Assembly (NCBI GenBank): GCA_965204035.1
Contig: OZ241964.1
Coordinates: 1,905,251 to 1,969,250 of the forward strand
Length of the DNA: 64,000 nucleotides
Direction of reading: 5' to 3'
Source: Thermodesulfobacteriota bacterium
GTDB taxonomy: Bacteria; Desulfobacterota_D; UBA1144; Nemesobacterales; Nemesobacteraceae
The notes below the pieces were generated by a model. It was not told the origin of the DNA, made no database searches, and saw only the letters and a program-made list of their open reading frames with translations. Positions 23,182 to 39,947 of the stretch are shown here, in pieces. The position numbers and the translations under genes are program-made. Position 1 is the first letter of the stretch. The number at the start of each line of letters is the position of its first letter.

Positions 23182-23448
23182 ATGAAAACAAAAATACCGA
23201 GATACATAGACGACCCTCCCCAGATATTCTGGTGGGAGATCGACGAAGTGGCGCTTTTCAGCGGGGCGTTCGTGGTCGGGGCCCTGGGAGGCCAGGTGCT
23301 CGGAGGGCTGCTCGCGGGCCTGGTCCTCTCCTGGCTGCTTGAGCGTCTTAAGTCCGGGAGGGGAAGCGCCTTTCTCGTTCACCTCGCCTACTGGTACGGC
23401 CTCTCGGGGGTAAGGCCCGAGAGCCGAAGGGAGAGGTTCTTTGAGTGA
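23182..23448 (+). CDS. traL: F-type T4SS protein TraL
   Basis: KSGRGSAFLVHLAYWYG matches TraL KKGRGSSWLRDLIYWY. Size 88 aa. ATGA overlap with traA. Confidence 0.6.
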   Translation: MKTKIPRYIDDPPQIFWWEIDEVALFSGAFVVGALGGQVLGGLLAGLVLSWLLERLKSGRGSAFLVHLAYWYGLSGVRPESRRERFFE

Positions 23449-25886: not shown

Positions 25887-26392
25887 GAAAATTCGCCATG
25901 GCCCTTATGCTTCTCTCCCCGCTTCTTTCGGCCTGCGCCGGAGGGTCGTCTCGCTACGGCTGTCCGGCCGAATCGGGCTACTCGTGCAAAAGCGTCTCCG
26001 AGGTTTACGTCGATGCGGCTTCGGGGCAAAAAAGCGGGGAGCGGCCCTTCCCGAAATCTCTTAAGAAGAAAAAAAGCGTACGGGAGGACGCGGGGAGAAA
26101 GTTCCTGAAAGGAAGGATCATCCGCGCGGGAAAAAATCTGCGCAGGCGGGCAGTCAGCAAGGAAGCCGCGCGGGCAGAAAAAGCGATGCCCGTCTATGTT
26201 CCCCCGCCCACGATACGCCTCTGGATAGCCCCGTGGCAGGAGGCCCGGGGCGTCTTTCACTCGCACAAGTACGTGTACGTGATCTCGGGCAGGGGGCGGT
26301 GGATGATCGGGGGAAAGACTGTTCCGCTGGGTGAGTCCCCGGAGGACTATTCGGGGGAAATACGGCTTCTCGGAGCGGAGGGGGCTCCCTGA
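25883..26392 (+). CDS. traV: F-type T4SS lipoprotein TraV
   Basis: Lipobox LLSAC followed by SRYGCPAESGYSC (TraV Cys pair). 169 aa. Order traB-traV-traC. Confidence 0.5.
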   Translation: MRKFAMALMLLSPLLSACAGGSSRYGCPAESGYSCKSVSEVYVDAASGQKSGERPFPKSLKKKKSVREDAGRKFLKGRIIRAGKNLRRRAVSKEAARAEKAMPVYVPPPTIRLWIAPWQEARGVFHSHKYVYVISGRGRWMIGGKTVPLGESPEDYSGEIRLLGAEGAP

Positions 26393-28824
26393 TGGGCGTG
26401 GCCAAGGACCGATTGCGGGATCTTGCGGCGAGGGATTCGCTTTCCTGCTACCTTCCCTACGTGGCCTGGGAGGAGGGGATGTACGTATTGGCCGACGCGT
26501 CGTGCGGCTTCGTATGGGAGATAAACCCGCTTCTTTTCGCCGGGGAAGACACAAAAAGGATCCTGGGCGGAATGCTCGGCGACCGGGTGCTTCCGCCGGG
26601 GACCTCCGTAAAGTTCCACGTGTTTGCCTCCGAGGTCATATCCCCGTTTTTCCCCGGGGAAGGGGCGGCGCGAGGCGAGATCTGCGGGGAGATAGCCGCC
26701 GAGAGAAAACGGCTTTACACCCTCGGGATGCGGGAGAGGGCCGGGGTTCCCGCGAGGGACTTCCGCTTCCTGGTGTCGATCAGGATCCCTCCCGGCCCGG
26801 GGAAGAAAAAGGAGACGGAGACCGAGTGGGAGAAGCACACGGAGGCCGCCCGCAAGCTCGGGGCGAACGTGGCCGGGGTCCTCAGCTCCGCGCAGCTCTA
26901 CCCCCGCGACCTCCCCCCGGCGCAGCTGATCCTCATTCTCCGCGAGGCGCTTAACCCCGACGGGCGCTGGTACGACGATCCCTACTACCTCGGCCGCCCG
27001 GGAGGAGGGCCCTACGACCCGGACAGGGAGATAAGAAGCCAGGTAGTTGACCGCGAGACCGCGATAGAGGTGCGGGCGGGGGAGATTTCGCTCGGGGACG
27101 CGCGCCTTAGGGGATACTCCCCCGCGTCCATGCCCGAGTACTTCTCCCTCGATGAGTTCCATGAGCTGCTTGGAGACCCCCTGCGGGGACTCTCGCAGGT
27201 GCCCGCATACTTTTTCCTGCAGGCGGGCTTTGTAATCCCGGAGAGAAAAAAAGCCTCGGAAATAAGGACCAAGGCCGCCGTGGTGAAGCAGCAGAGCTTC
27301 GGCCTCGTGACGAGATTCATACCGAGGTTAAGGAGGAAGGCAGAGAACTTCGATTTTCTGGTTAACGCCCTTGAGGACGAGGGACTGGTCATGGGGTCGC
27401 TCAGCCTCTTTCTCCGGACCCGGAGCGGAGAGGAGGCGGAGCGGGTAAAGGAGATGGTGACGGGAATATGGAGGGCGCGGAACTTTGATCTTCGCGAGGA
27501 GAAATACGTGGTGCTTCCCCTTCTGCTCGATAGCCTCCCGCTCGGCGGGGAGCCCGCCCTCGCGAAGCTTCTTCGGCGAAACTCGACCATGCAGAGCTCA
27601 GCGGGGGCCTCAATCGTTCCCGTAATGTCAGACTGGAAGGGAAGCGGCTCCGGGCCGCTTACCTTCATATCGAGGAGAGGGCAGGTTATGAAGCTTGATC
27701 TTTTCAGCTCGGCTTCCAATTACAACTGCGCGGTGTTCGCCCAGTCGGGCTCGGGAAAATCCTTTCTCGTCTCGGACATGATCACCGGGTATCTCTCGGA
27801 GGGGGCGCGGGTGTTCGTGATAGACATAGGCCGCTCCTACGAGAAGCTCTGCGGCCTGGTGGGCGGGGAGTTCGTGGTGTTTGACGAGGGAAGCGGGATC
27901 TCGCTTAACCCCTTCTCCCGCATAACGGACATAGACGAGGACATGGAGCTGCTTAAGCCCCTTTTCGCCCAGATGGCCTCTCCGTCTGAGGAAATAGGGG
28001 ACCTCGGGAAATCGCTTCTCGAGGAGGCGATAAAGAAAGCGTGGGAGAAAAACGGCCCCGAGGCGCGGATAGACGACGTGGTGAGCGCTCTCTCGGGCAT
28101 CTCCGATCCGCAGCGGCGCTCTGAGGATCTGGCGCACATGCTCTACGCCTACTCATCCCGCGGGCAGTACGGGCGGTTTTTCGAGGGACCGTCAAACCTC
28201 TCGTTTGAGAGGGACCTCAACGTGCTTGAGCTTGAGGAACTCAAGTCAAAGCCCGAGCTTCAGACCGTCGTGGTGCTCATGATCATCTGGCACATAGAAA
28301 GGGAGATGTATCTCGGGAGCCGCGAGCGGCGAAAGCTCGCGATAATAGACGAGGCGTGGGACCTGCTCGGCGGGGGATTCTCGGGCGAGTTCATAGCGCA
28401 CGGCTACCGAAGGGCGAGGAAGTATAACGGCGCCTTCGTCTCCGTAACCCAGAGCCTGCTTGACTTCTACAGGGCGGGGGACCTCGGGGAATCGGTGCTT
28501 GAGAACTCGGCCTGGATGTTCATGCTCCGCCAGAAGGGCGAAAGCGTAGAGGAGATAAAAAGGGGAGGGAAGCTTCTCCTTGGGGATTACTTCGGGGAGC
28601 TTGTCTCGACGCTCTCTACGCGCCCCGGGGAGTTCTCGGAAGTGTTCATATACAACAGCGAGCGCGGCATGGGCCTCGGGCGGCTGGTCGTCGATCCTTT
28701 TTCCTACTGGACCTACACCACGAACCCCGATGACGTCTCCCTTCTTAACGGATTCATATCGGAAGGGATGGAAGTGCGCGAGGCTATAGAGCGGTGCGTC
28801 GAGATCTCAAGGGAGAGGAGATGA
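26392..28824 (+). CDS. traC: F-type T4SS ATPase TraC (VirB4 family)
   Basis: 810 aa. Walker A AVFAQSGSGKSFLVSDM; Walker B LAIIDEAWDL. Confidence 0.8.
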   Translation: MGVAKDRLRDLAARDSLSCYLPYVAWEEGMYVLADASCGFVWEINPLLFAGEDTKRILGGMLGDRVLPPGTSVKFHVFASEVISPFFPGEGAARGEICGEIAAERKRLYTLGMRERAGVPARDFRFLVSIRIPPGPGKKKETETEWEKHTEAARKLGANVAGVLSSAQLYPRDLPPAQLILILREALNPDGRWYDDPYYLGRPGGGPYDPDREIRSQVVDRETAIEVRAGEISLGDARLRGYSPASMPEYFSLDEFHELLGDPLRGLSQVPAYFFLQAGFVIPERKKASEIRTKAAVVKQQSFGLVTRFIPRLRRKAENFDFLVNALEDEGLVMGSLSLFLRTRSGEEAERVKEMVTGIWRARNFDLREEKYVVLPLLLDSLPLGGEPALAKLLRRNSTMQSSAGASIVPVMSDWKGSGSGPLTFISRRGQVMKLDLFSSASNYNCAVFAQSGSGKSFLVSDMITGYLSEGARVFVIDIGRSYEKLCGLVGGEFVVFDEGSGISLNPFSRITDIDEDMELLKPLFAQMASPSEEIGDLGKSLLEEAIKKAWEKNGPEARIDDVVSALSGISDPQRRSEDLAHMLYAYSSRGQYGRFFEGPSNLSFERDLNVLELEELKSKPELQTVVVLMIIWHIEREMYLGSRERRKLAIIDEAWDLLGGGFSGEFIAHGYRRARKYNGAFVSVTQSLLDFYRAGDLGESVLENSAWMFMLRQKGESVEEIKRGGKLLLGDYFGELVSTLSTRPGEFSEVFIYNSERGMGLGRLVVDPFSYWTYTTNPDDVSLLNGFISEGMEVREAIERCVEISRERR

Positions 28825-29174
28825 GAAAAACGGGGGTTTCGCTTGCGCTGGCCGCGCTTTCGGTCCTTGTTCTGCTCGGGGTCTTCTCCTGCGCGGCTGA
28901 CAAGAGGGATGAGAAGGTGGTCTTCATAGAGCTTGAGACCGTGATCTCCGAGGAGAAAAAAAGGATATTCTCAAGGGTGCTTCGCGGGGAGCTATCGCGC
29001 GAGGAGGCCGAGGAGCGGGTCGGGCGGTTTTTCATACGCTTCGGCGAAGTCCTTGCCGATTATGAAAAAGAGGGCTATCTCGTGCTTGACGGAAAGTCGG
29101 TCCTTGGAGGCGGGAGAGACATAACCGGGGAGATGCTCGAGGAGCTCTCCGCCCGGGGAGAGGAAAATGAGTGA
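28821..29174 (+). CDS. trbI: TrbI-like protein
   Basis: Single N-terminal TM; pattern VVFIELETVISEE...RDITGEMLEEL resembles F TrbI (..VAFNMKQTV...PDITREIQ). ATGA overlap with traC stop. Same position as F trbI. Confidence 0.4.
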   Translation: MRKTGVSLALAALSVLVLLGVFSCAADKRDEKVVFIELETVISEEKKRIFSRVLRGELSREEAEERVGRFFIRFGEVLADYEKEGYLVLDGKSVLGGGRDITGEMLEELSARGEENE

Positions 29175-29661
29175 GTTTCTGCGGGCATGCGCGGGAGCGC
29201 GTGCGGCCGCTTCGGTTTTTCTGGTCCTTATTCTGTTTTCGGGGGCATACCTCTTCGGGATTCGTATCTCGTTTAACGTATCGGGATCGCTTCCCCACAG
29301 GGCGTTTCTCACGGTGCGGGGCGGGGAGATTTCCTGCGGGCCCCGAAGCATAGGGCTTTTTCGCCTGAACGTCCGCAATCCCTACTGGGATTACGGGACG
29401 ATTTTCGCGAAGAGGTTCGTCGGCTGCCCGGGCGATGCGCTAAGGACGCAAGGAAGAGAGTTTTACCTAAACGGCGAGAGAGTGGCCGTCGCAAGCGGAC
29501 ATGATTCAAGAGGAGCGGCCGTCTCAAGCTTCCGGCACGACGGGGTGATTCCCGCCGACAGCTACTTCGTTCTGGGAGACGGCGAGAGAAGCTATGACTC
29601 AAGATACTGGGGGTTTGTAAGAAAATCATGGATAGTCGGGCGTGGGTTTCCCTTGTTTTAG
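29167..29661 (+). CDS. S26-family signal peptidase-like conjugative peptidase (TraF/TrhF-type)
   Basis: C-terminal SYDSRYWGFV matches the S26 SxDSRxxG box. N-terminal TM. Confidence 0.55.
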   Translation: MSEFLRACAGARAAASVFLVLILFSGAYLFGIRISFNVSGSLPHRAFLTVRGGEISCGPRSIGLFRLNVRNPYWDYGTIFAKRFVGCPGDALRTQGREFYLNGERVAVASGHDSRGAAVSSFRHDGVIPADSYFVLGDGERSYDSRYWGFVRKSWIVGRGFPLF

Positions 29662-30251
29662 CCTCGGTTTTTTTTATCCAGTTCTCCCCGGTGCCGACCC
29701 GGGCTTCGGGTAAGGACCTCGGGGTTCACGGGCGCCTCTACGAAATAAGGGAAGAGGACATGCTTTTATATGTGCGGAGAAAAGCGGGGGAAATCTCAAT
29801 GGCGGCGCTTCGGGAAAGCATGGAGAAAAAGCTCGAGGAATCCTACGCGCGGCACTCTTTTGTTTCTCTCGATGTCCCTTCGGCTACGGAAGAGCGGGTA
29901 CGTTATGTCGACCCCTCGGTGAATGTACGAAATCCGCTCTACGACCACACGGGGGCGATGATTTTTCCCGCGGGGGCCGTAAACCCGCTTGATCACGTAT
30001 CGCTTTCAAAAAGCATCCTGGTGCTGAGGGAGGACCAGGTGAAAAGGGCGCTTGAGGAGACGGGCAAAACAGGTGAAAAGGCAATTCTGCTGCTAACCGA
30101 CGGCGATATCCGAAGGGCTTCCTCGCTTGCGGGCCGGATGGTTTACAAGGCAAGTCCTTTCATGCTCAGAAGACTCCAGGTTGAAAAAGTGCCGTCGCTT
30201 GTGACGCAGGAAGGGAGAAGACTCAGGGTGAAAGAAATGGTTTTAAAATGA
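29628..30251 (+). CDS. traW: F-type T4SS protein TraW
   Basis: Signal peptide then DLGVHGRLYEIREEDML, resembling the TraW N-terminus (LGVxGxVYPIxExD). Position after the peptidase. Confidence 0.55.
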   Translation: MDSRAWVSLVLASVFFIQFSPVPTRASGKDLGVHGRLYEIREEDMLLYVRRKAGEISMAALRESMEKKLEESYARHSFVSLDVPSATEERVRYVDPSVNVRNPLYDHTGAMIFPAGAVNPLDHVSLSKSILVLREDQVKRALEETGKTGEKAILLLTDGDIRRASSLAGRMVYKASPFMLRRLQVEKVPSLVTQEGRRLRVKEMVLK

Positions 30252-30265
30252 TTCCGTGTCACTCT

Positions 30266-30661
30266 TTATAGATCGGGATTAGCGAAAAAACTGGCGTTTT
30301 TTGCTAGTTCCAAAGCAAGTGACTTTCTGGCATTTTTCTTATCTGGCCATTTGATAATATTTGCGTGGTTGGGATTGTCTGGGGTAGGATCAGGCACAAC
30401 GCTTAACGACTGCAGAACCACATTATAAACTTTGATATCCGCCCTGCCATGAAGATTCCGAGATTGACCAGCAGCGACCTTCCGCCCAATACCCCAGATT
30501 CTATCTTCGGAAAAATTTAAATGACGGGTAGTTGATAATTCCAAGGAGTCTTCCGGCGGAATGAAGGCATCTTGTTTGACAGTTTGGTCACTTTTACGAT
30601 ACCACTTTGAAGAAATAATATATCTGGCTAAAAGCTCATCATCTGAAATAGAATCCGTCAT
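30266..30661 (-). CDS. hypothetical protein (131 aa), last gene of a 3-gene minus-strand operon
   Basis: 4-bp overlap with the upstream gene. No family recognised. Confidence 0.35.
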   Translation of the reverse strand: MTDSISDDELLARYIISSKWYRKSDQTVKQDAFIPPEDSLELSTTRHLNFSEDRIWGIGRKVAAGQSRNLHGRADIKVYNVVLQSLSVVPDPTPDNPNHANIIKWPDKKNARKSLALELAKNASFFANPDL

Positions 30662-31155
30662 ATATTTTCACTCGTAACATCTTCGATCAATCTTACTAGG
30701 TCCTTTGAAACTTCAAATAAAGCAAAGCCATCTCCATGTCTTCGGTCTCCACCATTTATGGCTGCGAAATAAAGCCGGCCCCCAGGATTGATGCTAATTG
30801 AAATCACCCTGGTAGGAGACCGATACCATTCCAAAGTTATTGCCCCATCCGGTTCAGCACCTATTTCCGGTGATTCAAATCCTAAGGGAAAAGACCAAAG
30901 AAAAATTTTGGCGTGCCGCAAAACCTGTTTTGTTATCGGTTCCGCTCTCTCCCCATCCCAACCTTTCGACGAACATTCTTCAAAAGTGCTTTTCAACTCT
31001 TGGAAAGTTCCCCTACCAATAAGACCAAGGGTATTAGACCTGTGAAGATAATTAGATACTTCCTCCACTTCTTGGTCTATATAGCGTGCAGGGGAAACGC
31101 TCTGACTAGAAGAACCTTGGTCGGCATAACCAGAAATAGCAGGCATACTATTCAC
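30658..31155 (-). CDS. hypothetical protein, paralog A (165 aa)
   Basis: About 55% identical over ~125 aa to the protein encoded at 34717-35133 on the opposite strand (shared ECSS.GWDGERA.P..K.VLR....FL.SFP.G.E.PE.GAEPDGAI.LEWYRSP..VIS.S.NPGG..Y.AAI.G). RBS gaggag. Confidence 0.4.
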   Translation of the reverse strand: MNSMPAISGYADQGSSSQSVSPARYIDQEVEEVSNYLHRSNTLGLIGRGTFQELKSTFEECSSKGWDGERAEPITKQVLRHAKIFLWSFPLGFESPEIGAEPDGAITLEWYRSPTRVISISINPGGRLYFAAINGGDRRHGDGFALFEVSKDLVRLIEDVTSENI

Positions 31156-31915
31156 ACTCCTCTAAAGCTTTCTCTGTCAAACTGCTAAAGAAAACTTTGT
31201 TTTTAACCCAACGCATTTTGTTCATATGTTCAGAAATTCGTAATTCATTAAAACTGAGGCGTTTATCCATAAAGACATCGATATCCAGCAACAACCCAGC
31301 TTCTTGCTGAGTTGTTTGAACAGTTTTTGTAACATTAGCTGAATAGGGAGTTCCCGGAACTTGGAGCACATCTCGATGCAGGTAACCTGATAAAGGCCAG
31401 TTCAAACCTTCGATAGGTAGTGGTGGTCTTTTATAATAATCAGCCAATTCGACTTTCTGTTCCTGTTTGATCGCTAGACGGTTTATAAAGCGTAAATCAA
31501 TTCTCCCAATTTCAACTGGTTTTAATAGTTCGCAGTAAATTTTCCAAAGCCGTAACGCTTCTTGACTAAATTTCTCCCAGTTTTCGTAAGGTTTCAGCCG
31601 ACTAAAAACAAATGAGTCTTTATTAAACTGTACGACATAAAAACTATCTTCCGACTGGCACTTCAAGCCAATGTGGACAAAATCTTTAATTACATTGGTC
31701 CCAGTCTTAGGTGAAAACTGAACTTCGGTTTCCTGAACCGTGTCATGCTTCGGGTAATCAGGCAATCGTTCTTTCAACTGTTTTTGTAGACTCGACTCAT
31801 CCCATTCAGTAGAAGAAGCAACTCGAAGATCAAGAACGGCCTCAACAATTGGCGCTTGGGATAGATGACGAAATTTTTCTTCTAGGTCAATAGTATTTGC
31901 CATAATCTCTGTCAC
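31148..31915 (-). CDS. hypothetical protein (255 aa), first gene of the 3-gene operon
   Basis: 8-bp overlap with the paralog-A start. AT-rich promoter-like region upstream (31916-32320). Confidence 0.4.
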   Translation of the reverse strand: MTEIMANTIDLEEKFRHLSQAPIVEAVLDLRVASSTEWDESSLQKQLKERLPDYPKHDTVQETEVQFSPKTGTNVIKDFVHIGLKCQSEDSFYVVQFNKDSFVFSRLKPYENWEKFSQEALRLWKIYCELLKPVEIGRIDLRFINRLAIKQEQKVELADYYKRPPLPIEGLNWPLSGYLHRDVLQVPGTPYSANVTKTVQTTQQEAGLLLDIDVFMDKRLSFNELRISEHMNKMRWVKNKVFFSSLTEKALEECE

Positions 31916-32322
31916 TCATATGTCTTATTATTACTTTTAAGTTTTTCCCGAATCCCCTTTCCCACAGCATTTCCCGACAAAGCTTCTCCTAATTGATTTC
32001 ACCGTTTAAAATCAAATTCGGGATAAAAGTTGCAGGATGCTAGGCATTTTCGCTCGGTTTTGAGCAGATTCAACAGTAAGTGCAAGATTATTCCGGCCAT
32101 AATCTTATTTTCCCTCGACTCTGGTGGAGAAAGCTTTTTAAGAACCTTTTTTCGTCAGTGAGTCGCTTAGCATCAACTTAACAAGTCTTTTTTGCCTATT
32201 TCCTAGGAATTTCGGGAAAACTAAACTTAATCTTTGTTATATATAATAGTACTACAGTCCGTGGTTTCAAGTAAAAAGGCAAGGTTCCGATGCCGCGAAA
32301 AAATAAAACGGCGACGGAATAA

Positions 32323-33318
32323 TTATACAACAACCCGGTTTCGGTAATTCTCGAGCCATCCAAGAGCTTCCGTCAACAGTTCGTATCCTTCGATCATCGT
32401 GCCGGTATTCACCAAGTGCTCGGCCTCCGCAACTCGGATGGGAACACGGAGTCTGTGCAATAAGTTACCCATGACGCGCACGTCATCAATAAACTGGCTG
32501 CGCTCAATAGCAAACGGCACGATCATATAAGAAATAAAAACCGTCTCCGGTTGTTTTGCAAACCATCGACCTTTAAATGCGTCAATGTGACCTTTAAGCG
32601 ATTTCTCACGACTGTTCCGGCCGGTAGCAACCTGGGCCACCGCAAGCAGAAATCCAGGCAACTCATCCTTGTGAGAACGAACAGCAATTACGTCAAGCTT
32701 ATCGTCCTTTGGTTGCTCCGGAGCCCCCTCTTGCCGTCCGACGCGCCCGTCACTTATGTCTTCCCATATTTCTCTTAATTTATCAAAAAAAGAAGAACTG
32801 TCCGGCCTTGGAGACCCGAATGACCAAGCCTTGCCTCCTATTTCCGCCGCCAAGGCCGCCGTCGCAAAGTATTGGAAGTACTGCCGTAGTTTCCTTACCT
32901 CGGCAGCGTCAGGATGAAGATCAGAATCGGTAAGTATAGTAGATGCAGATTCAAGGTTAGACAAAATGAGACATAAGATATAAGCAGCTCGTCCGAGTGA
33001 ACCATTAACTGTAACCAAACGCAAGATGTGGCCGCCTTTGTCAAGTTGAAAGGGGTAAGAAGCGTTAAGGATTCGTTGACGTTCGTTTATCAGGTTGACA
33101 GTGTCTCCAACAAGCTCCTCTTCGTCTTGCGCTCTTTCAACCCCAGACTCCGTATTGCTTTCCTCCGCACCAATCGACACTCCGTTGGCCAAATTCGACG
33201 TTAGAACTACTCTATCCGGAGAAAAGAAAGCTGAAAGTTCCAGAAAATCAGCGGCCCGGTCCAAGTCAACTGCCGTACCGGTCACCTCATCAATCGGCAA
33301 ATAAACGGGGCTCGTCAT
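32323..33318 (-). CDS. hypothetical protein (331 aa), partner of the ParB-like gene; possible C-terminal HEPN-like R-x6-H (RVMGNLLHR)
   Basis: 4-bp overlap (33315-33318) with the upstream ParB-like gene. No Walker motif. The R-x6-H is seen but weak. Confidence 0.4.
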   Translation of the reverse strand: MTSPVYLPIDEVTGTAVDLDRAADFLELSAFFSPDRVVLTSNLANGVSIGAEESNTESGVERAQDEEELVGDTVNLINERQRILNASYPFQLDKGGHILRLVTVNGSLGRAAYILCLILSNLESASTILTDSDLHPDAAEVRKLRQYFQYFATAALAAEIGGKAWSFGSPRPDSSSFFDKLREIWEDISDGRVGRQEGAPEQPKDDKLDVIAVRSHKDELPGFLLAVAQVATGRNSREKSLKGHIDAFKGRWFAKQPETVFISYMIVPFAIERSQFIDDVRVMGNLLHRLRVPIRVAEAEHLVNTGTMIEGYELLTEALGWLENYRNRVVV

Positions 33319-34433
33319 TCCGCAGCAAGGGCCTCTCGGTTTTTTTTCTGCATTCGCTGATGAACGGTTTCCGCAGTTTCCTTGATATCCTCGGCGACCC
33401 CGAGAAGTGAGTCGTCCCGCCCGTCATAAGCTCTAAGCGACCCCGCCGCATCCTTTATCGCAGTCCGCGCTCGCAACAAAGAAGCAGTAAATCGGCTGTC
33501 CACGGGTTCGACAGCCGCATAAGCCTCATCAAGATTGCGCGACATTTTTAGAATGTGAAGCGCTTCAATATTTTCTAGAACTTCGCCAAGACGCTTGATG
33601 TCCGGATTCTGTGTCCGAATAACCGGCAATACATCGTCCGTACTTGATCCATAGATCCAGAGGAGCAACTCCTTGAGATTGTCCAGTTTTTTACTTTTCA
33701 CCGGATTGGGTTTGGGGTCATATCTTACCCATCTTGAACCGAGACCTAGATATTTCATATATTGGGATCGGCTGAGTGCAGTATAGAGATGCGAGAAGTT
33801 GAATTTGGGGGTGACTCGATCCTCAACATCAAAAAGTTCGTTTTTCTTTGCCTGATCAAGAACATAAATTGCCGATACCATTCGCTTGATCGTGTCATGC
33901 CCGTCGCCGACTGCTTTTGCTATTGTCTTCAGATTATCATCGGATTGTTTGTACCAATCGGCCGCAAACCGGGCCTTGGCGTAAGAATCCCACTTGGCCG
34001 GGCCGTTGACATGTTTGAATCCAATGAAAGACCTAGCAGTCTCCCTGCTGTCAACACAGTACACGGATACCTCATCTAAAGTACCCCGCAGAGATTTAGC
34101 GACGGTCGGAGGGTTGATTGCCAGTTTTTCCGTTTTGAGGATTTTCTTTGCCAGTTTCGGTTCGCGTAGCAGTCGTAGCGCAGCCAAGCGCCTGTTGCCC
34201 TCAAGCACAACCAGCTTATCGCTCCCGGCCTCTCGCATCGCAATCAACGGTTCAATATCAAGATATCCGTTAGAGGAAATTGATTGCAACAGTTCCCCCA
34301 GTTCCGCACTGCGGTACAACTCGGCAATTATCGCCTCATCAGTTGAATCAACCGACTGGCTAATCAGCCGCGGATTCTTATGGTCAAGCTTAAGCTTCTC
34401 GACCGGAATCTTTGAAACCTCGTTCAGTTCCAT
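33315..34433 (-). CDS. ParB/Srx-like N-terminal domain protein with central HTH (372 aa)
   Basis: LKLDHKNPRL...LVVLEGNRRLAALRLL resembles the ParB N-domain box (hhhaGERRwRAak). Putative HTH KTIAKAVGDGHDTIKRMVSAIYVL. No adjacent ParA. Confidence 0.5.
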   Translation of the reverse strand: MELNEVSKIPVEKLKLDHKNPRLISQSVDSTDEAIIAELYRSAELGELLQSISSNGYLDIEPLIAMREAGSDKLVVLEGNRRLAALRLLREPKLAKKILKTEKLAINPPTVAKSLRGTLDEVSVYCVDSRETARSFIGFKHVNGPAKWDSYAKARFAADWYKQSDDNLKTIAKAVGDGHDTIKRMVSAIYVLDQAKKNELFDVEDRVTPKFNFSHLYTALSRSQYMKYLGLGSRWVRYDPKPNPVKSKKLDNLKELLLWIYGSSTDDVLPVIRTQNPDIKRLGEVLENIEALHILKMSRNLDEAYAAVEPVDSRFTASLLRARTAIKDAAGSLRAYDGRDDSLLGVAEDIKETAETVHQRMQKKNREALAAE

Positions 34434-34716
34434 GATAATCCCCCCGAACTTCTGGAATCGGATAAAGAAAAAAGGTTGTTATGCCACCAATGGTTGGGGG
34501 GCGATCGGGATCTGGCAGAAATTCTCAGATCCCATCGCGAGGCCGAACCATGGCTTCGCCGTTACATTATGGACGTGATCAGCGACCTGGAAGAGCGGCC
34601 CGGGCTTGAGAAAGCCAGAAAACCGTCTTGACGCGGGATACTGCCCACGCAGGCGAAAAATGAAGGCTTCTCCAAAAATCAAACGGAAAAATCTGGAGGG
34701 GCAGGAGGTAAACGGC

Positions 34717-35133
34717 ATGACAAGTTTCACTGATAAAGACATCTTCCAGGAACTGGAAAAAGTTTTTCAAGAATGCTCGTCAGACGGCTGGGACGGAGAG
34801 AGAGCGAAACCGGTCTCAAAAGAGGTTCTGCGGAGCACCGTAGCCTTTCTCGAATCTTTTCCCTCCGGCATCGAGCCGCCGGAGACGGGGGCTGAACCCG
34901 ACGGAGCCATATCTCTTGAGTGGTACCGCTCCCCTGAAAAAGTGATTTCAGTCAGCGTCAATCCGGGAGGAGAAGTTTACTACGCGGCTATAATCGGCAC
35001 TCGGCGAAACCATGGAAAGGGTTCGGTTCGCTCCGGCGTCTCGGATAATCTGCCGGCGCTGGTAGAAAAGGTTACGCAAAAGAACGGAGGATCGAGAAAA
35101 ATACAAGAGGGTTTAAACCCAATTTCAAATTGA
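34717..35133 (+). CDS. hypothetical protein, paralog B (138 aa from the internal ATG)
   Basis: Paralog of 30658-31155 in inverted orientation. RBS caggaggtaaacggcATG at 34717; the longer listed ORF (34606) has no RBS. Confidence 0.4.
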   Translation: MTSFTDKDIFQELEKVFQECSSDGWDGERAKPVSKEVLRSTVAFLESFPSGIEPPETGAEPDGAISLEWYRSPEKVISVSVNPGGEVYYAAIIGTRRNHGKGSVRSGVSDNLPALVEKVTQKNGGSRKIQEGLNPISN

Positions 35134-35443
35134 TTTGGCGCCATTCCCTCCCGGCATCGCTCCATGTCATTGAAAGGCTAAACTGCCTGCGCCGTGTGCC
35201 CGGTATCAAACCGCCAAAGAAAGGGTTTTAAGATGATCCTCGATGGCTCGAGCAATGTCACCCGACAGCGGAAGATTTCCCTTCTCCACTCGCCGTAAAC
35301 CTCCCAGAGCTTGAAATATCCCTGCGTATGTGATTTCCAGTATGAGCGGGCAGGTCACATCCTACACTCGGACTGTAACGATCCTTCGGTGCGAATTCAG
35401 CTTTATTTTAAGATCGAATTCACTTATACTTATCATTGATATG

Positions 35444-35860
35444 AAAACGCTTCTGTTCATCGCTGCGCTTTTGATCTGCGCTTGGCCGACAGGTGTTTTG
35501 GCCGACAACCAGACTTCTGAGATTCCCGGGGAGCACTTAAGGCAAAAAGCGGCGGTTTCGCGACCCGCCGATGCGCCCGGCGCCAAATCAAAAGCCTTCA
35601 TACACCCGGATACGGGAGAAATCCTGACCCGCAAGCAGTGGCAGGCCCTCGGCCTCGAAAACGACGAAGCCGAGGCCGCGACGCGCCTCTCTTCCGACGC
35701 CCCCGAACCGGAGAGTGCCCCGACGGTGCTTGAGGGCAGGCAGATCGATCTTGGAAACGGAGACTACGTCATAGTGGTCGATGCCCCCGAATCCGATATG
35801 GTTGAAACCAAGGTGTGGTTTGACGAAGAGGGAAAAGCCCATATCAATTGCAATCACTGA
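35444..35860 (+). CDS. small secreted protein (signal peptide MKTLLFIAALLICAWPTGVLA)
   Basis: Signal peptide. Stop overlaps the start of the metalloprotease gene. Confidence 0.35.
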   Translation, partial: KTLLFIAALLICAWPTGVLADNQTSEIPGEHLRQKAAVSRPADAPGAKSKAFIHPDTGEILTRKQWQALGLENDEAEAATRLSSDAPEPESAPTVLEGRQIDLGNGDYVIVVDAPESDMVETKVWFDEEGKAHINCNH

Positions 35861-38205
35861 GCGCCGTGAAAAAACTTCTCCCCGGGATACTTTTTCTTCT
35901 GCTGGCCGCCATGGCCCCGCTTCGCCCTTGTGTTGCGGTCACGGTCGAGGAAATATACGACGATGACGCAGGTAAGGGGTTCAAGGACGGAACCAGCCTG
36001 ACGCAGACCGAAAAGAATCGTATCTCTCCGAGCGGAAACGACGCGCAGACCTTGGGGGAAGCGAGAACAAAGGCTTTTGAATACGCCACATCTCTTCTCG
36101 AGAGCACTCTGACTAACTCAAGCACGATCAGGATAAGCGCGAAATTCGTGATTTTTTCGGGCCAGGAGAATCCGAACAATCCCGATGAATGCCGACAGAC
36201 TCTAACAGGCCGCACAAGCCTAGCCTCCGCAGGACCGAGAGGCTACGCCTATCCCGGGAGAAGGCTTGACCAAGGAGACGTAAATCGTGTGGGGCTCGGA
36301 ACCGCTTATCCCCACGCGCTTCACGAAGCCATCGGGGGGAGGAACCTCAACTCGCAGGAGGCCGATCTCGCAATATTTTTCAGCGAGTGCGTTCCGTTTC
36401 ATTACGGGTTTACGGGACCGGTGCCGGCCCGTCATGTAGATTTCGTCAGGATTGCCCTGCATGAGATCATGCACGGGATAGGGTTCCTCTCTCAGGTCGG
36501 AAACGACGGAAGTTTTCCTGAACTATCCATTACTGCCTTCAGTACGGTAAACGGGGTAACCACCTCGCGGCAAATCAACATAAAATCGCGGACTATCTAC
36601 GATGAGCAGCTGTATTCGGAGAGCCACGACGATCTTCTGATAAATCTTGGAAACAGAGAGAGAGCGGCGGCGATCATTTCCGGCACCGGCCTTCTCTGGG
36701 AAGGAACCGACGGCGGCAGAAACAGCTGCAGTTACGGGCAGCGGATGACCGAACTCAAAGCAAGCTCCGCCAGGTCCCAAGACGGCAAACCTCGGCTCCA
36801 CGCTCCCTCGGCCTATAGGGACGGCGCATCCGTTTCACACACTCACGATAACGCAGAAGATATCATGGAAGCCCTTTACCCCTTCCCGCAAAACATGGAT
36901 CTCACCTTGGGCATGCTGAAGGACATTGGATGGAGCGTAAGCGCCGATGGTTTCCCGCCCGGCTGCGAGCCTACGGGAATCGGGGTTAGGGTGACAGATT
37001 CCGTAACCACCGAGGGAGGAAAGGAAGCGATGTTCGAGGTAAGGCTTGAATCGGAGCCCACAGAAAACATAGTGATCCCGTTAACGAACAGCGATCCGTC
37101 CGAGGGAACCCTCTCCACGCCCGAGCTCGTGTTCACTCCCCAGGACTGGGATATGCCCCGGGAAGTGACGGTAAGAGGCGTGGACGACGGTTTGAGAGAC
37201 GGGACCCAAGGCTACCTCATAACGCTTGAGGACGCGCGAAGCGGCGACAGGTTCTATAGCGGCTTCACTCCCTCGCCCCGGATCATTTCTCTTAGAAACG
37301 AAGATAACGAACCGCCGCCACCACAGCTACAGCCACCACAGCTACAGCCACCACAGCCACCGCCGCCACAGCCACCGCCGCCAACGGTAACGGTATCTTT
37401 TGATTCATCTTCCTACAGCGTCAGCGAAGGCGAAGCAGTGACTGTGGGGATAACGTTGAGTGCGGATCCTGAGCGTACCGTTACAATCCCGATTGCCGTC
37501 GATGAGGCAACCACTGCCGACTCAGGAGAATATTCCCTGTCTTCGACAAGCGTAACATTCGCAAGCGGCGAGATCTCGAAAAATATCACCCTGACCGCTG
37601 CTGATGATGATGCTGATGATGACGGCAAAACGGTGGTTCTTGCTTTCGGAACACTTCCCCCAAGAGTCTCCAGAGGCACGCAGGACTCCGCCACGGTAAC
37701 CATTTTGGACAATGACGACCCTGACGTATCGGTACAGTTCGCCTCGTCCGCTTACAGCGTCACAGAAGGCGAGACGGTTGCCGTGCAGATAACCCTTAGC
37801 GCGGACCCCGAGCGTACAGTGACAATCCCGATTGCCGTCGATCGGGCAACCACTGCCGCCACCGAGGACTACTCCCTGCAATCGGCAAGCGTCGCGTTTG
37901 AAAGCGGAGAAACTTCGAAGGACGTCACCCTGACCGCCGCGGATGATGACCTCGACGATGACGACGAGAGCGTGGAACTGGGTTTCGGGACACTTCCCGA
38001 AGGAGTCAGTGCGGGAGAAAGAGACCGGACCACGATAACCATCCTAGACAATGACGTGGCGGAAAGCGGAGGAGGCGGGTGCGCCATCGCAACGGAAACA
38101 GGCCATGGGGTTGCCGCGGTGAATCTGCTCCTGATCGTAACTGTCCTGTTTTCTGTCCTCTTGCGTAGCTCAGCAAACCAACCGTGTTACGGCGAAAGCC
38201 GCTAA
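35848..38205 (+). CDS. secreted M8 (leishmanolysin-like) zinc metalloprotease with Pro/Gln linker, two Calx-beta-like repeats and a C-terminal Gly-Cys + TM + basic sorting signal
   Basis: Signal peptide. HEIMHGIGF is the HExxHxxGF zinc motif typical of peptidase M8. PPPPQLQPPQLQPPQPPPPQPPPP linker. Two ~110-aa repeats (VTVSFDSSSYSVSEGEAVTV... / VSVQFASSAYSVTEGETVAV...). C-terminus GGGGCAIATETGHGVAAVNLLLIVTVLFSVLLRS. Confidence 0.5.
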   Translation: MQSLSAVKKLLPGILFLLLAAMAPLRPCVAVTVEEIYDDDAGKGFKDGTSLTQTEKNRISPSGNDAQTLGEARTKAFEYATSLLESTLTNSSTIRISAKFVIFSGQENPNNPDECRQTLTGRTSLASAGPRGYAYPGRRLDQGDVNRVGLGTAYPHALHEAIGGRNLNSQEADLAIFFSECVPFHYGFTGPVPARHVDFVRIALHEIMHGIGFLSQVGNDGSFPELSITAFSTVNGVTTSRQINIKSRTIYDEQLYSESHDDLLINLGNRERAAAIISGTGLLWEGTDGGRNSCSYGQRMTELKASSARSQDGKPRLHAPSAYRDGASVSHTHDNAEDIMEALYPFPQNMDLTLGMLKDIGWSVSADGFPPGCEPTGIGVRVTDSVTTEGGKEAMFEVRLESEPTENIVIPLTNSDPSEGTLSTPELVFTPQDWDMPREVTVRGVDDGLRDGTQGYLITLEDARSGDRFYSGFTPSPRIISLRNEDNEPPPPQLQPPQLQPPQPPPPQPPPPTVTVSFDSSSYSVSEGEAVTVGITLSADPERTVTIPIAVDEATTADSGEYSLSSTSVTFASGEISKNITLTAADDDADDDGKTVVLAFGTLPPRVSRGTQDSATVTILDNDDPDVSVQFASSAYSVTEGETVAVQITLSADPERTVTIPIAVDRATTAATEDYSLQSASVAFESGETSKDVTLTAADDDLDDDDESVELGFGTLPEGVSAGERDRTTITILDNDVAESGGGGCAIATETGHGVAAVNLLLIVTVLFSVLLRSSANQPCYGESR

Positions 38206-38274
38206 CTCAGCCGCGCACCACCCGAAATATCCCTTCTTGCCTTATTTCCTGTTTTGTATTACATTATAGTTATT

Positions 38275-39264
38275 ATGTCCAGGAAAAATATCTTCCTCGC
38301 CCTGCTCATCGGGACTTTTTTCCTGAGTGCCGCAAGGGACGCTGCCGCGTCGGCCAAATGCGGCGGGAGGTTCTTTAACCCGGTTTCGGACGTTGATTGG
38401 GGAGCGATGTTCCCGATAAAGATAGGGGGAGTAGCCATAACACCGGGTGAAAGGACCGACACGGTGAGTCATTTTCCGCTCTGTTTCTGCGGATCCCCCG
38501 TCCCCCGGGTCGGAATAAAGGTTTCGTTCTGGGAACCGGTGAAGCTGGTTGAGGTCGTAAGGCACCCCGGATGCTTCCCTTCGCTCGGGGGCAGAAAGCT
38601 TCCCCTTCCCTCCTTCGCCATGGCGGGGACATACGGGGAGGGAGGCGGGCAGCGTGGGGACAGGACCTCGTTTCTTCACGTCCACCACTTTCTCTACCCG
38701 GTGTTCTCCGTGCTTAACCTTTTTTCAAGTTTCGGGTGCATGACCCAGGGAGGATTCGACCTCGCATACCTCACGGCGTTTGATCCTCTCTGGAGCAACG
38801 ACGAGCTTTCGTTTCTGCTCCACCCCGAGATAGCGCTCGTGGCTAATCCCGCAGCCCAGGCATCGTGCGCCACGGACGCCGTGGCCGCCGCGGGGGGCTT
38901 TGGGATAAACGAGCTTTTCTGGTGCGCGGGATCCTGGGGAAGCGTCTACCCCCATACGGGGAACAACGGGGCCACGGGCGACCTCCCGGCCGTCTACGCG
39001 CTTTCGGCCGTAAAGCTGCTCGCGAAACTGCATAACGAACTTCTGGCGTTTAAGACCACGGGAGAAGGGTCTCTGTGCGCCGCGCAGCCTCACCGCGTAA
39101 TAGTGAAAGACCAGTACAAGCTTCAGCTCGCATTTCCGAAGAACACGCGGGCGTTCCCCATAGGGAGGGCGACGGCCCGCTGGGCTCCCGGCAAATGGTA
39201 CCCCGGGCAGGGAGAAGACTGGGTATGGGTGCTATGGAGAAAAAAAGATTGCTGCCTGCTCTGA
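38275..39264 (+). CDS. traU: F-type T4SS protein TraU
   Basis: Signal peptide then KCGGRFFNPVSDVDWGAMFPIKIGG, matching the TraU N-terminal C.G.F.NP..D..W signature. About 330 aa. Confidence 0.7.
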   Translation: MSRKNIFLALLIGTFFLSAARDAAASAKCGGRFFNPVSDVDWGAMFPIKIGGVAITPGERTDTVSHFPLCFCGSPVPRVGIKVSFWEPVKLVEVVRHPGCFPSLGGRKLPLPSFAMAGTYGEGGGQRGDRTSFLHVHHFLYPVFSVLNLFSSFGCMTQGGFDLAYLTAFDPLWSNDELSFLLHPEIALVANPAAQASCATDAVAAAGGFGINELFWCAGSWGSVYPHTGNNGATGDLPAVYALSAVKLLAKLHNELLAFKTTGEGSLCAAQPHRVIVKDQYKLQLAFPKNTRAFPIGRATARWAPGKWYPGQGEDWVWVLWRKKDCCLL

Positions 39265-39947
39265 TAGCGGTGGCGGTGGCCTTTACGGCAACGGCCTCCG
39301 CAACCGCAGAAAATCCCGCTTCGCTTAAGGGAGTAAGAACCAGCCCCGGCGAAGCAGAGCTCTCCCGCGTGAAAAAGCTTCTGGGGAACCTCAAGGAGCC
39401 CGATACGCAAGGGGCCGAGAAAACCCTCTCAGAGATAAGAAACAATTCCCCCGGGGAAAAAGAAACCGAAGAAATAATGGAACTGCTGTCGGCTAAACCC
39501 CAACCCGCGACGGCTCTTTCTGAAAAAAAGGCAGGAGCAGGAAGCGGGAACTCAAGGCTTTTTTACTTTTTCTCATTCTCGATGCCGCGCCTATCTCTGC
39601 GCGAAGCGGCGAGGGAAAGCGCGGCCGGCGGAGCGGTGATGGTTCTCCGGGGACTTTCGGGAGAAGACCTCGGGGGAACCGTCTCGCGGATATCCGAGGT
39701 CATAGGGAAAACCGGAGCGCAGGTATGGATAGACCCCCTTCTTTTCGAATGCTTCTCCGTAGGGGCCGTGCCGCAGACCGTACTTGCCCACGCCCACCTG
39801 CCGGGAGCGGACTGCGAGGGTCTGCGCCACGTAAAGGTTTCGGGGGACGTATCGCTTCCCTACGCTCTCGGGCTTATGGAAAAGGAGGATGCAAATGCCG
39901 GGATATTTATCGAACGGCTCAATAAAAACGGCTTTTACGGTGATTAG
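39225..39947 (+). CDS. trbC: F-type pilus assembly protein TrbC
   Basis: Starts within the end of traU (in-frame ATG at 39225 or 39234). Signal peptide (LLPALIAVAVAFTATASA). Position between traU and traN as in F. Confidence 0.45.
   Translation: MGAMEKKRLLPALIAVAVAFTATASATAENPASLKGVRTSPGEAELSRVKKLLGNLKEPDTQGAEKTLSEIRNNSPGEKETEEIMELLSAKPQPATALSEKKAGAGSGNSRLFYFFSFSMPRLSLREAARESAAGGAVMVLRGLSGEDLGGTVSRISEVIGKTGAQVWIDPLLFECFSVGAVPQTVLAHAHLPGADCEGLRHVKVSGDVSLPYALGLMEKEDANAGIFIERLNKNGFYGD

What the first reader, a model, noticed from the sequence alone, without database searches (positions are those of the whole stretch)
30266..35330. Lower-GC cargo insertion splitting the F-type T4SS operon between traW and traU: ParB/Srx-like + unknown partner, candidate new defense module
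The tra operon is otherwise contiguous and in F order. After traW (ends 30251), traU resumes only at 38275. The intervening DNA is visibly less GC-rich than the tra genes. It holds a two-gene overlapping cassette (33315-34433 ParB/Srx N-domain + HTH protein, no ParA; 32323-33318 a 331-aa partner with a possible C-terminal R-x6-H), a separate three-gene operon (31915-30266), and a pair of inverted paralogs. In SXT/R391-type ICEs with the same MPF-F system, equivalent intergenic 'hotspots' are where anti-phage systems are inserted. By analogy, the ParB-like/partner pair is a candidate, apparently undescribed, defense or addiction module carried as conjugative cargo.
Basis: partly seen in the sequence, partly recalled or inferred. 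Interest (0 to 1): 0.8.

Follow-up and report, generated by a model that had tools for sequence, protein, structure and literature searches.

The report
Methylase-less ParB-like restriction module in conjugation hotspot
The two genes are the likely DNA-cutting half (a ParB-like protein plus a restriction-type nuclease) of a widespread, uncharacterised three-gene restriction-modification-like defence system, carried here as cargo in a variable slot of a conjugation operon, without its protective methylase and without its usual promoter.

Summary
traW ends at 30251 and traU starts at 38254/38275. The 8 kb between them is not tra DNA, and its left 4.2 kb has 45% GC against 60-62% in tra. All listed ORFs exist, and the window has no ParA. 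E (372 aa, ParB/Srx fold plus HTH) and D (331 aa) are not T4SS core or partition genes. They form a tightly coupled pair in 74 of 80 loci from many phyla. In 63 of those 74 a DNA methyltransferase directly follows D, and RM and Gabija-like genes are frequent neighbours. D models as a winged helix plus a PD-(D/E)xK nuclease, not HEPN. E shares only its ParB-like N-domain with PD-lambda-5_A, a validated E. coli defence protein that pairs with a Dam-like methylase. All four closest relatives examined carry that methylase just upstream of E, three of them with a PD-lambda-5_A gene or remnant beside it. In the window, homology to the 95%-identical sister contig stops 62 nt upstream of E, inside the conserved promoter-like element, so methylase and promoter are both gone. 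Sister elements carry different cargo at the same traW-traU slot, which makes it a real hotspot. Verdict: a new variant of a known kind (ParB-assisted RM-like defence), here probably an intact but silenced remnant.

The parts
33315..34433 (-). E: 372-aa ParB/Srx-fold protein (NPR and LEGNRRLAAL motifs), followed by an HTH and a helical C-terminal region. Proposed NTP-dependent DNA-binding or sensor subunit.
32323..33318 (-). D: 331-aa partner, winged helix plus PD-(D/E)xK-type nuclease core (D205, D209, Q229-x-A, K239). Proposed cleavage subunit.
34434..34495 (-). The 62 nt of E's native upstream region that are retained. The breakpoint with the sister element L082 is at 34495/34496.
   Evidence: blastn: L082 is 95% identical to the window up to 34495. 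The alignment of upstream regions shows the conserved TTGAAT...TACAAT element of the relatives replaced in the window. No minus-strand promoter-like site lies at 34434-34700.
30266..31915 (-). C-B-A: independent three-gene cassette (C 255 aa, TIGR04255 family; B 165 aa; A 131 aa). Function unknown. Weak resemblance to PADLOC candidate PDC-M32.
   Evidence: TIGR04255, E 2e-35. PDC-M32B, E 7e-4 for A, and weak C-terminal PDC-M32A hits for B. The same 251 / 159-165 / 128-135 aa trio appears in 7 places returned by three look-ups, in at least three unrelated settings.
34606..35133 (+). F: solo inverted paralog of B, with no C-like or A-like neighbour.
   Evidence: blastp B against F: 61% over 114 aa. 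tblastn finds no C or A remnant nearby. F is absent from L091.
35330..35860 (+). G: small predicted secreted or lipoprotein, kept just upstream of traU in the sister elements.
   Evidence: 60% aa matches in L091 and L092 directly before TraU.
35848..38205 (+). H: 785-aa predicted secreted metalloprotease with two Calx-beta domains. Further cargo between G and traU.
   Evidence: Calx-beta, E 3e-21. NF038122 metalloprotease, E 6e-11. No H match in L091 or L092, where G is followed by TraU.
30253..38233 (.). Whole variable cargo slot between traW and traU.
   Evidence: Homology to L091 ends at 30252 and resumes at 38234. The gap between the aligned TraW and TraU segments is under 420 nt in 44 of 53 other MPF-F loci.
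29628..30251 (+). traW (left flank of the slot).
   Evidence: TIGR02743, E 2e-28.
38254..39264 (+). traU (right flank of the slot). An ATG lies at 38275.
   Evidence: PF06834, E 1e-96.

Best explanation
E and D are the restriction side of a widespread, horizontally mobile, three-gene restriction-modification-like defence system. Its parts are a ParB/Srx-fold protein with an HTH (E), a winged-helix plus PD-(D/E)xK nuclease (D), and a DNA methyltransferase. The methyltransferase is either an N6_N4 type encoded right after D or a Dam-like D12 type encoded next to the pair.

Proposed working (inferred, not shown): the methylase marks host DNA. E binds DNA through its HTH and uses nucleotide binding or hydrolysis at the ParB-fold pocket to sense or hold unmethylated DNA, and to license D. 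D then cuts the foreign DNA. The closest validated relative is PD-lambda-5, a single ParB-like protein plus a Dam-like methylase. E-D looks like a two-subunit counterpart that can share the same methylase.

In this window the module rides as cargo in a variable traW-traU slot of an F-type conjugative element. A rearrangement ending 62 nt upstream of E has removed both the methylase (with the neighbouring PD-lambda-5_A gene) and the conserved promoter-like element. The two ORFs are intact but probably silent, as expected if losing the methylase alone would be lethal.
For: Pair and triad.
- E is followed by D at 0-61 nt in 74 of 80 loci from Acidobacteriota, Binatia, Latescibacterota, Nitrospirota, Proteobacteria, Cyanobacteria, Chloroflexota and others.
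- A methyltransferase lies within -27 to +30 nt of D's end in most of the 57 loci with the N6_N4 type. A D12/PD-Lambda-5_B-like type is present in 6 more.
- Divergent pairs (25-41% identity) in L032, L054 and Vibrio campbellii also sit beside a D12 methylase.

Folds.
- E has a ParB/Srx fold plus HTH, with invariant NPR and GNRR motifs.
- D matches restriction-endonuclease folds.
- D205, D209 and Q229 are invariant at 25-29% identity. The lysine is either in QxK or at K239, never both.

Link to PD-lambda-5.
- hhalign of E against the L082 PD-Lambda-5_A gives 98% probability over about 150 aa.
- PD-Lambda-5_A plus D12 methylase lie directly upstream of E-D in L082 and L173. L081 has the methylase and a PD-Lambda-5_A cut by the contig end. 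L172 keeps methylase-E-D while PD-Lambda-5_A has decayed to 46 aa.
- PD-lambda-5 defence is validated in PMC9519451.

Defence context.
- Of the 84 nearest large neighbours, 8 are type III methylases, 8 are UvrD/GajB-like and 4 are type I REases.
- BrxL and PglZ lie next to the triad in L171.

Window-specific points.
- No methylase was found by tblastn or by a catalytic-motif scan.
- The breakpoint is at 34495, and the TACAAT element is lost.
- E and D keep every family-invariant residue.
Against: - No experiment exists for this family.
- About 10 of 74 loci have no methylase that I could detect next to the pair, so a methylase may not be strictly required. A methylation-independent or modification-dependent mode is not excluded. 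MspJI and AspBHI, which are modification-dependent enzymes, are among the fold hits.
- The promoter is inferred only from conservation in four relatives and a consensus look. Read-through transcription could still express E-D.
- A methylase of the same specificity could lie outside the 64 kb.
- The breakpoint could be an assembly chimera.
- NTP binding by E is inferred from motifs only.
Confidence: 0.62

Rival explanations
1. Modification-dependent (type IV-like) or methylation-independent nuclease system. E acts like the DUF262/ParB-type NTPase sensor of GmrSD, SspE or Menshen NsnA, and D is its effector. The pair works on its own, and the neighbouring methylases belong to other systems.
For: ParB-superfamily NTPase sensors paired with nucleases are an established defence theme (PMC12065111). 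MspJI and AspBHI are among the fold hits for D. About 10 of 74 loci, and the window itself, have E-D with no adjacent methylase. In L082 and L173 the D12 methylase could belong to PD-Lambda-5_A alone.
Against: In 57 loci the methylase gene overlaps or abuts D, which indicates one operon. The link survives deep divergence, two unrelated methylase families and different gene orders. L172 keeps methylase-E-D after PD-Lambda-5_A has decayed. A modification-dependent nuclease next to an active methylase would attack its own host. E is structurally closer to KorB and PadC than to DUF262 proteins.
Confidence: 0.17
2. Partition or KorB-like regulatory protein of the conjugative element. E is a centromere-binding or silencing ParB, and D is an accessory factor.
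For: The best structural matches for E are KorB and ParB-family proteins with an HTH. The element is conjugative.
Against: The window has no ParA. Most homologs are chromosomal, next to RM genes. Only 4 weak matches turn up among 72,556 plasmids. D has a nuclease fold. The sister T4SS element L091 lacks the pair entirely. TIGR00180 parB scores 21.5 bits against a 58.45 cut-off.
Confidence: 0.04
3. Inter-element conflict factor, that is fertility inhibition or anti-plasmid exclusion in the manner of Osa. A ParB/Srx enzyme with its nuclease degrades incoming or competing conjugative DNA rather than phage DNA.
For: Osa, a ParB/Srx-superfamily member, is described as a fertility inhibition factor of conjugative plasmids (cited in PMC12065111 and PMC12839542). 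The pair sits inside tra operons in the window, L082, L173 and L026.
Against: This overlaps with the RM reading, since RM systems also restrict plasmids. Most occurrences are not on conjugative elements. The methylase linkage is not explained by an Osa-type mechanism.
Confidence: 0.07
4. The window copy is fully active. It is expressed from another promoter and protected by a methylase encoded outside the 64 kb.
For: Both ORFs are intact and keep all family-invariant residues. Only 64 kb of the genome is visible. A weak minus-strand promoter-like site lies at 35261-35233.
Against: The conserved upstream element is lost exactly at the breakpoint. No methylase is in the window. All four closest relatives examined keep the methylase immediately upstream.
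Confidence: 0.3

Closest known systems
PD-lambda-5 (Vassallo et al. 2022, PMC9519451; PADLOC PD-Lambda-5_A and _B)
   Same: PD-Lambda-5_A has a ParB-like N-domain with the (D/E)GNRR motif, homologous to E's (hhalign 98%, 33% identity over about 150 aa). It is paired with a DNA methylase. The same D12 methylase family sits next to E-D in the window's closest relatives. It occurs on mobile elements and in defence islands. Its authors call it a compacted RM+Abi-like system.
   Different: PD-Lambda-5_A is one protein of about 465 aa. Its C-terminal 300 aa has no detectable similarity to E's C-terminal part or to D. E-D splits the function into two proteins, with a separate PD-(D/E)xK nuclease. Most E-D loci use an unrelated N6_N4 methylase. 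E matches only the first third of the PD-Lambda-5_A profiles. The window has no B component.
Type II restriction-modification systems
   Same: A methyltransferase is tightly linked to a PD-(D/E)xK-fold nuclease. The module is mobile and sits in defence islands.
   Different: There is an obligatory, highly conserved third protein with a ParB/Srx fold. No match turned up to any REase model in PADLOC, or to any Pfam or NCBIfam family, for D. The window copy lacks the methylase.
ParB-superfamily (DUF262) sensor plus nuclease defences: GmrSD/BrxU, SspE, Menshen NsnA-B-C
   Same: A ParB-fold NTPase followed by a DNA-binding domain is proposed to sense DNA and control a nuclease (PMC12065111).
   Different: Those systems use the DUF262 DGQQR clade fused or linked to HNH or BECR effectors and an ABC ATPase. 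They read modified DNA or phosphorothioate. E carries GNRR, resembles KorB and PadC more closely, pairs with a PD-(D/E)xK protein and is linked to a methylase.
PADLOC candidate PDC-M38 (A subunit, 715-position profile)
   Same: E residues 42-340 align to PDC-M38A positions 58-344, E 1e-22. This is a longer shared region than with PD-lambda-5_A.
   Different: The PDC-M38A profile is about twice E's length. D matches no PADLOC model at a meaningful level (best E 0.018). PDC-M38 is itself an untested candidate, and I could not inspect its partner genes.
SXT/R391 ICE variable hotspots carrying phage defence (LeGault et al., bioRxiv 10.1101/2020.12.16.423150)
   Same: Conserved MPF-F tra genes are interrupted at fixed points by exchangeable defence cargo. 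In L026, E-D-methylase and a HerA-containing gene pair lie between traN and ssb-recT-yqaJ.
   Different: The window's T4SS is a different lineage (TraU 39-42% identical to most MPF-F loci found). The slot, traW-traU, is not among the SXT hotspots as I recall them (own knowledge, not checked here).

Membership tests
PD-lambda-5 defence system | A-component: full-length match to PD-Lambda-5_A (about 465 aa: ParB-like N-domain plus its specific C-terminal region) | tested here: not met
   E matches only profile positions 3-168 of 466. hhalign aligns only about 150 N-terminal residues. D is unrelated to PD-Lambda-5_A.
PD-lambda-5 defence system | B-component: an adjacent D12 (Dam-like) methyltransferase | tested here: not met
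   No methylase was found in the 64-kb window by tblastn or motif scan. It is present next to E-D in L081, L082, L172 and L173.
Restriction-modification system (type II-like) | A cognate DNA methyltransferase encoded with the nuclease | tested here: not met
   Absent in the window. Met in 63 of 74 related loci.
Restriction-modification system (type II-like) | An endonuclease with a PD-(D/E)xK (or other REase) catalytic core | tested here: inconclusive
Restriction-modification system (type II-like) | Methylation-sensitive cleavage of a defined site | not testable with these tools
   This needs biochemistry or methylome data.
ParABS partition / KorB-type regulator | A ParA (Walker-type ATPase) partner on the element | tested here: not met
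   No KGGxGK[ST] motif in any frame of the window. None of the recurrent neighbour clusters that I annotated is a ParA.
ParABS partition / KorB-type regulator | Membership of the ParB/RepB/Spo0J sequence family | tested here: not met
   TIGR00180 scores 21.5 bits against a cut-off of 58.45. Pfam ParB_N is not reported for the window protein. Only the fold is shared.
ParB/Srx fold superfamily (NTP-binding domain) | ParB/Srx fold with the GxxR-type nucleotide-binding motif | tested here: met
   R281-x6-H288 exists in the main clade, but H288 is D or N in divergent homologs. The fold is alpha/beta and REase-like.
GmrSD/SspE-type type IV restriction | A DUF262 domain joined to a DUF1524 HNH nuclease | tested here: not met
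   No GmrSD_N or DUF1524 hit for E or D. Only a PD-Lambda-5_A-like neighbour protein gave a weak GmrSD_N hit, E 8e-4, below cut-off.
Core F-type T4SS gene set | Presence at this position in related T4SS operons | tested here: not met
   Absent from the sister element L091 and from 50 other MPF-F loci in which traW and traU are close together.
Cargo hotspot of a conjugative element | The same insertion point between conserved genes, with different gene content in related elements | tested here: met
   Window, L082, L173 and L091 carry four different contents directly after TraW. The window and L091 share exact boundaries at 30252 and 38234.

The most novel reading that the evidence does not exclude
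E-D-methylase would be a distinct class of restriction system. A ParB-fold NTPase, possibly CTP-dependent like ParB, KorB and Noc, loads on DNA and acts as a clamp or switch. It scans for unmethylated sites and delivers or licenses a separate PD-(D/E)xK nuclease. That would carry the ParB clamp mechanism from chromosome segregation into immunity and would also explain how PD-lambda-5 works. The pairing with PD-lambda-5 around one shared Dam-like methylase would then be a 'one methylase, two ParB-type restriction arms' design.
Probability: 0.2. Interest if true: 0.8.

Novelty: new variant of a known kind. Interest (0 to 1): 0.55.

Why it matters
The window copy alone is probably a silenced remnant, but it points to a family that looks worth testing.

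- **Scale and state of knowledge.** The family has more than 3,300 E homologs and more than 630 D homologs. It is conserved at 45-67% identity across distant phyla and is annotated only as 'hypothetical'. No library or paper I could search describes it as a unit.
- **Link to a validated system.** It ties a ParB-fold protein to a restriction-type nuclease and a methylase, and it shares a domain with PD-lambda-5. PD-lambda-5 protects broadly against phages in E. coli, and I found no paper on how it works. Testing the triad could show what the ParB-like domain does in both systems.
- **A new hotspot.** The traW-traU slot is a second example, outside SXT/R391, of an F-type conjugation operon with a fixed point where defence and secreted-protein cargo is swapped.
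- **A natural experiment.** The methylase and the promoter-like element appear to have been lost in one event. That fits the idea that restriction genes can outlive their methylase only if they are switched off at the same time.

Tried and rejected
- The first genome-contig scan used E alone and found nothing, because its peptide patterns came from non-conserved stretches. Repeating it with alignment A1 worked.
- Sequence searches of the E and D profiles against PDB chains gave nothing meaningful.
- The afdb50 fold library was unavailable. Foldseek against PDB gave only weak hits for D.
- I looked for a remnant of the methylase downstream of D (31916-32322) and anywhere else in the window. None was found.
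- I looked for C-like or A-like remnants around F, to test whether F is a decayed second C-B-A cassette. None was found. An inversion between B and F is also rejected, because the window is collinear with L082 from 24575 to 34495.
- Exact-sequence look-ups of the window's TraU and TraW found no contigs.
- PLSDB holds only 3-4 distant matches, on megaplasmids or chromids, and the Vibrio record has no annotation.
- Source names for family members are 'hypothetical protein' or absent.
- The short repeats at the module edges are too short or too weak to call att or transposon ends. These are I8 (15 nt, flanking E-D) and D4 (29 nt, upstream of both G and traU).
- The literature search found no mechanistic study of PD-lambda-5 and no description of a ParB + REase + methylase triad. 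Maindola et al. 2014, on Osa, was not available.
- B-family proteins are mostly stand-alone proteins of about 160 aa. So the idea that C plus B equals a split PDC-M32A could not be confirmed.

Full report
**1. The observation**

TraW (29628-30251) and TraU (38254-39264, with an ATG at 38275) are confirmed by NCBIfam and Pfam. TraC, TrbI, an S26 peptidase, TraN, TraH, TraG and a TraD-like coupling protein surround them.

GC content falls sharply inside the segment:

| Block | Coordinates | GC |
|---|---|---|
| Left tra block | 19392-30252 | 0.600 |
| A-E block | 30253-34495 | 0.448 |
| C-B-A | 30266-31915 | 0.411 |
| D-E | 32323-34433 | 0.491 |
| F region | 34496-35329 | 0.530 |
| G-H | 35330-38233 | 0.562 |
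| Right tra block | 38234-46835 | 0.621 |

E and D overlap by ATGA. B and F are inverted paralogs, 61% identical over 114 aa. No ParA-type Walker A motif exists in any frame of the 64 kb.

**2. Is it an insertion in a hotspot?**

A metagenome scan with TraU returned 80 MPF-F loci. In 53 of them both TraW and TraU were found. The distance between the aligned segments is under 420 nt in 44, about 800-920 nt in seven, and 1691 nt in one. The remaining locus is the sister element L091, at 3035 nt. Adjacency is therefore the rule.

Three close relatives of this particular T4SS were found, and each carries different cargo after TraW.

- **L091.** It is 90% identical in nucleotides to window 23307-30252 and 84% to 38234-40183. 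It has only 3.0 kb between TraW and TraU, holding an RTX-like 484-aa protein and a G-like small protein. There is no A-E and no H.
- **L082.** It is 95% identical to window 24575-34495. Its order is TraW | A B C | D E | D12 methylase | PD-Lambda-5_A | a 202-aa protein | an Eco57I-like protein.
- **L173.** Its TraC is 88% identical. Its order is TraW | a 193-aa gene | D E | D12 methylase | PD-Lambda-5_A.

The slot 30253-38233 is therefore a real variable cargo site, with exact boundaries shared between the window and L091.

**3. What E and D are**

*E.* Pfam gives nothing significant. PADLOC matches its first 165 residues to PD-Lambda-5_A (E 3e-24) and residues 42-340 to candidate PDC-M38A. The AlphaFold model (pLDDT 82.6) matches KorB, PadC, SerK, SbnI, archaeal ParB-N and sulfiredoxin in its N-domain. 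It matches sigma-4 and DeoR HTHs in the middle. NPR and LEGNRRLAAL are invariant across 28 homologs.

*D.* It has no family match in any library. Its model (pLDDT 74.6, pTM 0.81) is closest to restriction endonucleases: N.BspD6I, FokI, SdaI, HindIII, PaqCI, MspJI, Bse634I, NgoMIV, Cfr10I and SgrAI. The N-terminal part resembles winged-helix domains. Foldseek agrees, weakly (MspJI, E 0.01).

I aligned D with homologs of only 25-29% identity from L032, L054 and Vibrio. D205, D209-V210, Q229, G233, R289 and R291 stay invariant. The L032 protein has Q-C-K and lacks K239, whereas all the others have Q-x-A and keep K239. That pattern suggests a relocated catalytic lysine in a PD-(D/E)xK site.

**4. 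The pair belongs to a three-gene system**

Both proteins have very many close homologs: more than 3300 for E and 634 for D, mostly 55-77% identical. I fetched 80 genomic loci from widely separated phyla. Several are from MAGs whose names point to sponge symbionts, such as Candidatus Synechococcus spongiarum. D follows E at 0-61 nt in 74 of them.

Clustering the neighbours showed a third conserved gene right after D. It carries DPFCGRGTT and SPPY motifs and matches Pfam N6_N4_Mtase and PADLOC MTase_II. By tblastn, this methylase abuts or overlaps D in 57 loci. A D12 (Dam-like) methylase that matches PD-Lambda-5_B at E 4e-117 is present in 6 more.

Divergent E'-D' pairs also sit beside a D12 methylase. 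The link therefore holds across two unrelated methylase families, several gene orders and deep divergence. That is the signature of a functional R-M relationship.

The surroundings are defence islands. Recurrent neighbours are type III Mod and Res, type I HsdM, HsdS and HsdR, UvrD/GajB-like helicases and AAA_21 ATPases. Of the 84 nearest large neighbours, at least 20 hit RM or Gabija-helicase models at E <= 1e-10. L171 has BrxL and PglZ next door.

**5. Relation to PD-lambda-5**

The scans showed what the PADLOC models stand for. PD-Lambda-5_A is a protein of about 465 aa with a ParB-like N-domain. PD-Lambda-5_B is a Dam-like methylase. Vassallo et al. validated PD-lambda-5 as a broad defence and called it a compacted RM+Abi-like system (PMC9519451).

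E shares only the N-domain with PD-Lambda-5_A, and D shares nothing with it. Even so, E-D and PD-lambda-5 are repeatedly neighbours (L053, L056, L068, L081, L082, L173). In L172 the methylase-E-D unit survives while PD-Lambda-5_A has decayed to 46 aa.

I read E-D as a two-subunit analogue of PD-Lambda-5_A that can use the same methylase. This step is inference.

**6. The state of the window copy**

No methylase exists in the window. All four closest relatives examined (71-99% identical E) have a D12 methylase 229-270 nt upstream of E. Their intergenic regions share a TTGAAT...TACAAT element about 65 nt before the ATG. The window's homology to L082 begins immediately 3' of that TACAAT, which is replaced by GC-rich unrelated sequence. 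No minus-strand promoter-like site lies between E and F.

E and D keep every invariant residue. The simplest reading is a recent rearrangement that removed the methylase, PD-Lambda-5_A and the promoter together, leaving an intact but probably silent restriction pair.

Four caveats apply. The promoter is only inferred. Read-through transcription is possible. A methylase may lie outside the window. An assembly chimera cannot be excluded.

**7. Other contents of the slot**

- **C-B-A.** This cassette (C is TIGR04255 family, E 2e-35) recurs as the same three-gene unit in 7 places returned by three look-ups, in at least three unrelated settings, one a Candidatus Dadabacteria MAG. It is an independent mobile module of unknown function. 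It resembles PADLOC candidate PDC-M32 only weakly.
- **B family.** The family has about 2700 representatives, mostly stand-alone proteins of about 160 aa.
- **F.** It is a solo paralog of B.
- **G.** It is kept before traU in the sister elements.
- **H.** It is a secreted metalloprotease with Calx-beta domains and is absent from the sister elements.

**8. Rivals**

- *Partition or KorB-type role.* This is rejected. There is no ParA, the distribution is chromosomal and defence-linked, the pair is absent from the sister T4SS, and the parB family score is below its cut-off.
- *Type IV-like or methylation-independent mode.* This remains possible (about 0.17), because some loci lack a methylase and modification-dependent enzymes are among D's fold hits.
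- *Osa-like inter-plasmid conflict.* This is compatible with an RM-type activity but does not explain the methylase.

**9. Verdict**

The module is a new variant of a known kind: an RM-like defence built around a ParB-fold protein, related to PD-lambda-5. It is widespread and untested. The window carries an incomplete, probably silenced copy in a genuine traW-traU cargo hotspot.

Noticed in passing
window 14128-14982 (+), with 9719-13735 (-) nearby: A 284-aa protein has a CAP12/Pycsar-type TIR effector domain (PF10137, E 4e-37). Next to it, in a second lower-GC stretch (0.43-0.53) upstream of the tra genes, is a 1338-aa ORF whose N-terminus is an MqsA-like HTH. This may be another defence or toxin-antitoxin cargo region of the same element.
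   Followed up: no
window 30266-31915 (-); L084-L090: The C-B-A trio (TIGR04255-family 251-255 aa, then 159-165 aa, then 128-135 aa, with overlapping genes) is a self-contained mobile cassette. It turns up in 7 places from three look-ups, one in a Candidatus Dadabacteria MAG. Function unknown; only weak PADLOC PDC-M32 resemblance.
   Followed up: partly
window 35848-38205 (+); L091 7318-8772 (-): The same hotspot also carries secreted calcium-binding proteins: a metalloprotease with two Calx-beta domains in the window, and an RTX-like 484-aa protein in sister element L091. So the slot is not used for defence genes alone.
   Followed up: partly
L026 1-21110 (Methyloversatilis universalis MAG): This element has TraW-TraU-TraN, then a HerA-like ATPase pair on the opposite strand, then E-D-methylase, then ssb-recT-yqaJ. 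That puts defence cargo at a position that looks equivalent to SXT hotspot HS4 (traN-s063, from my own knowledge).
   Followed up: partly
L054 550-5629; L032 768-3729 and 10001-11125: Two loci hold a second, divergent E'-D' pair (34% and 25-29% identity). In L054 the two pairs converge on a single D12 methylase. This suggests duplication and diversification of the restriction arm around one methylase.
   Followed up: partly
L059 11110-13713: The D homolog is split by an insertion of about 1.6 kb (residues 1-256 and 236-325 lie in separate pieces), and the methylase follows further on. This is probably a copy inactivated by an insertion element.
   Followed up: no
window 46951-48189 (+): An AAA_14/DUF4143 ATPase sits directly after traG. 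Homologs (25-33% identity) lie within 10 kb of the E-D module in L001, L050, L051 and L069.
   Followed up: no
window 21-1001 and L081 4998-8657: The DDE transposase at the window's left end is 77-79% identical in nucleotides to a transposase region on contig L081, which also carries an E-D pair. The two may come from related hosts or communities, or share an IS family.
   Followed up: no
window 35313-35341 and 38224-38252: A 29-nt direct repeat (76% identical) lies just upstream of both the G start and the traU start. It may be a duplicated translation-initiation region left by the insertion of H, or it may be chance.
   Followed up: no
L012, L016, L021, L071, L072 (downstream of the E homolog): In 5 of the 80 loci E is not followed by D. 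Small ORFs and an AAA_21/HEC-01A-type ATPase, or type I RM genes, follow instead. E-like proteins may therefore pair with other effectors.
   Followed up: no
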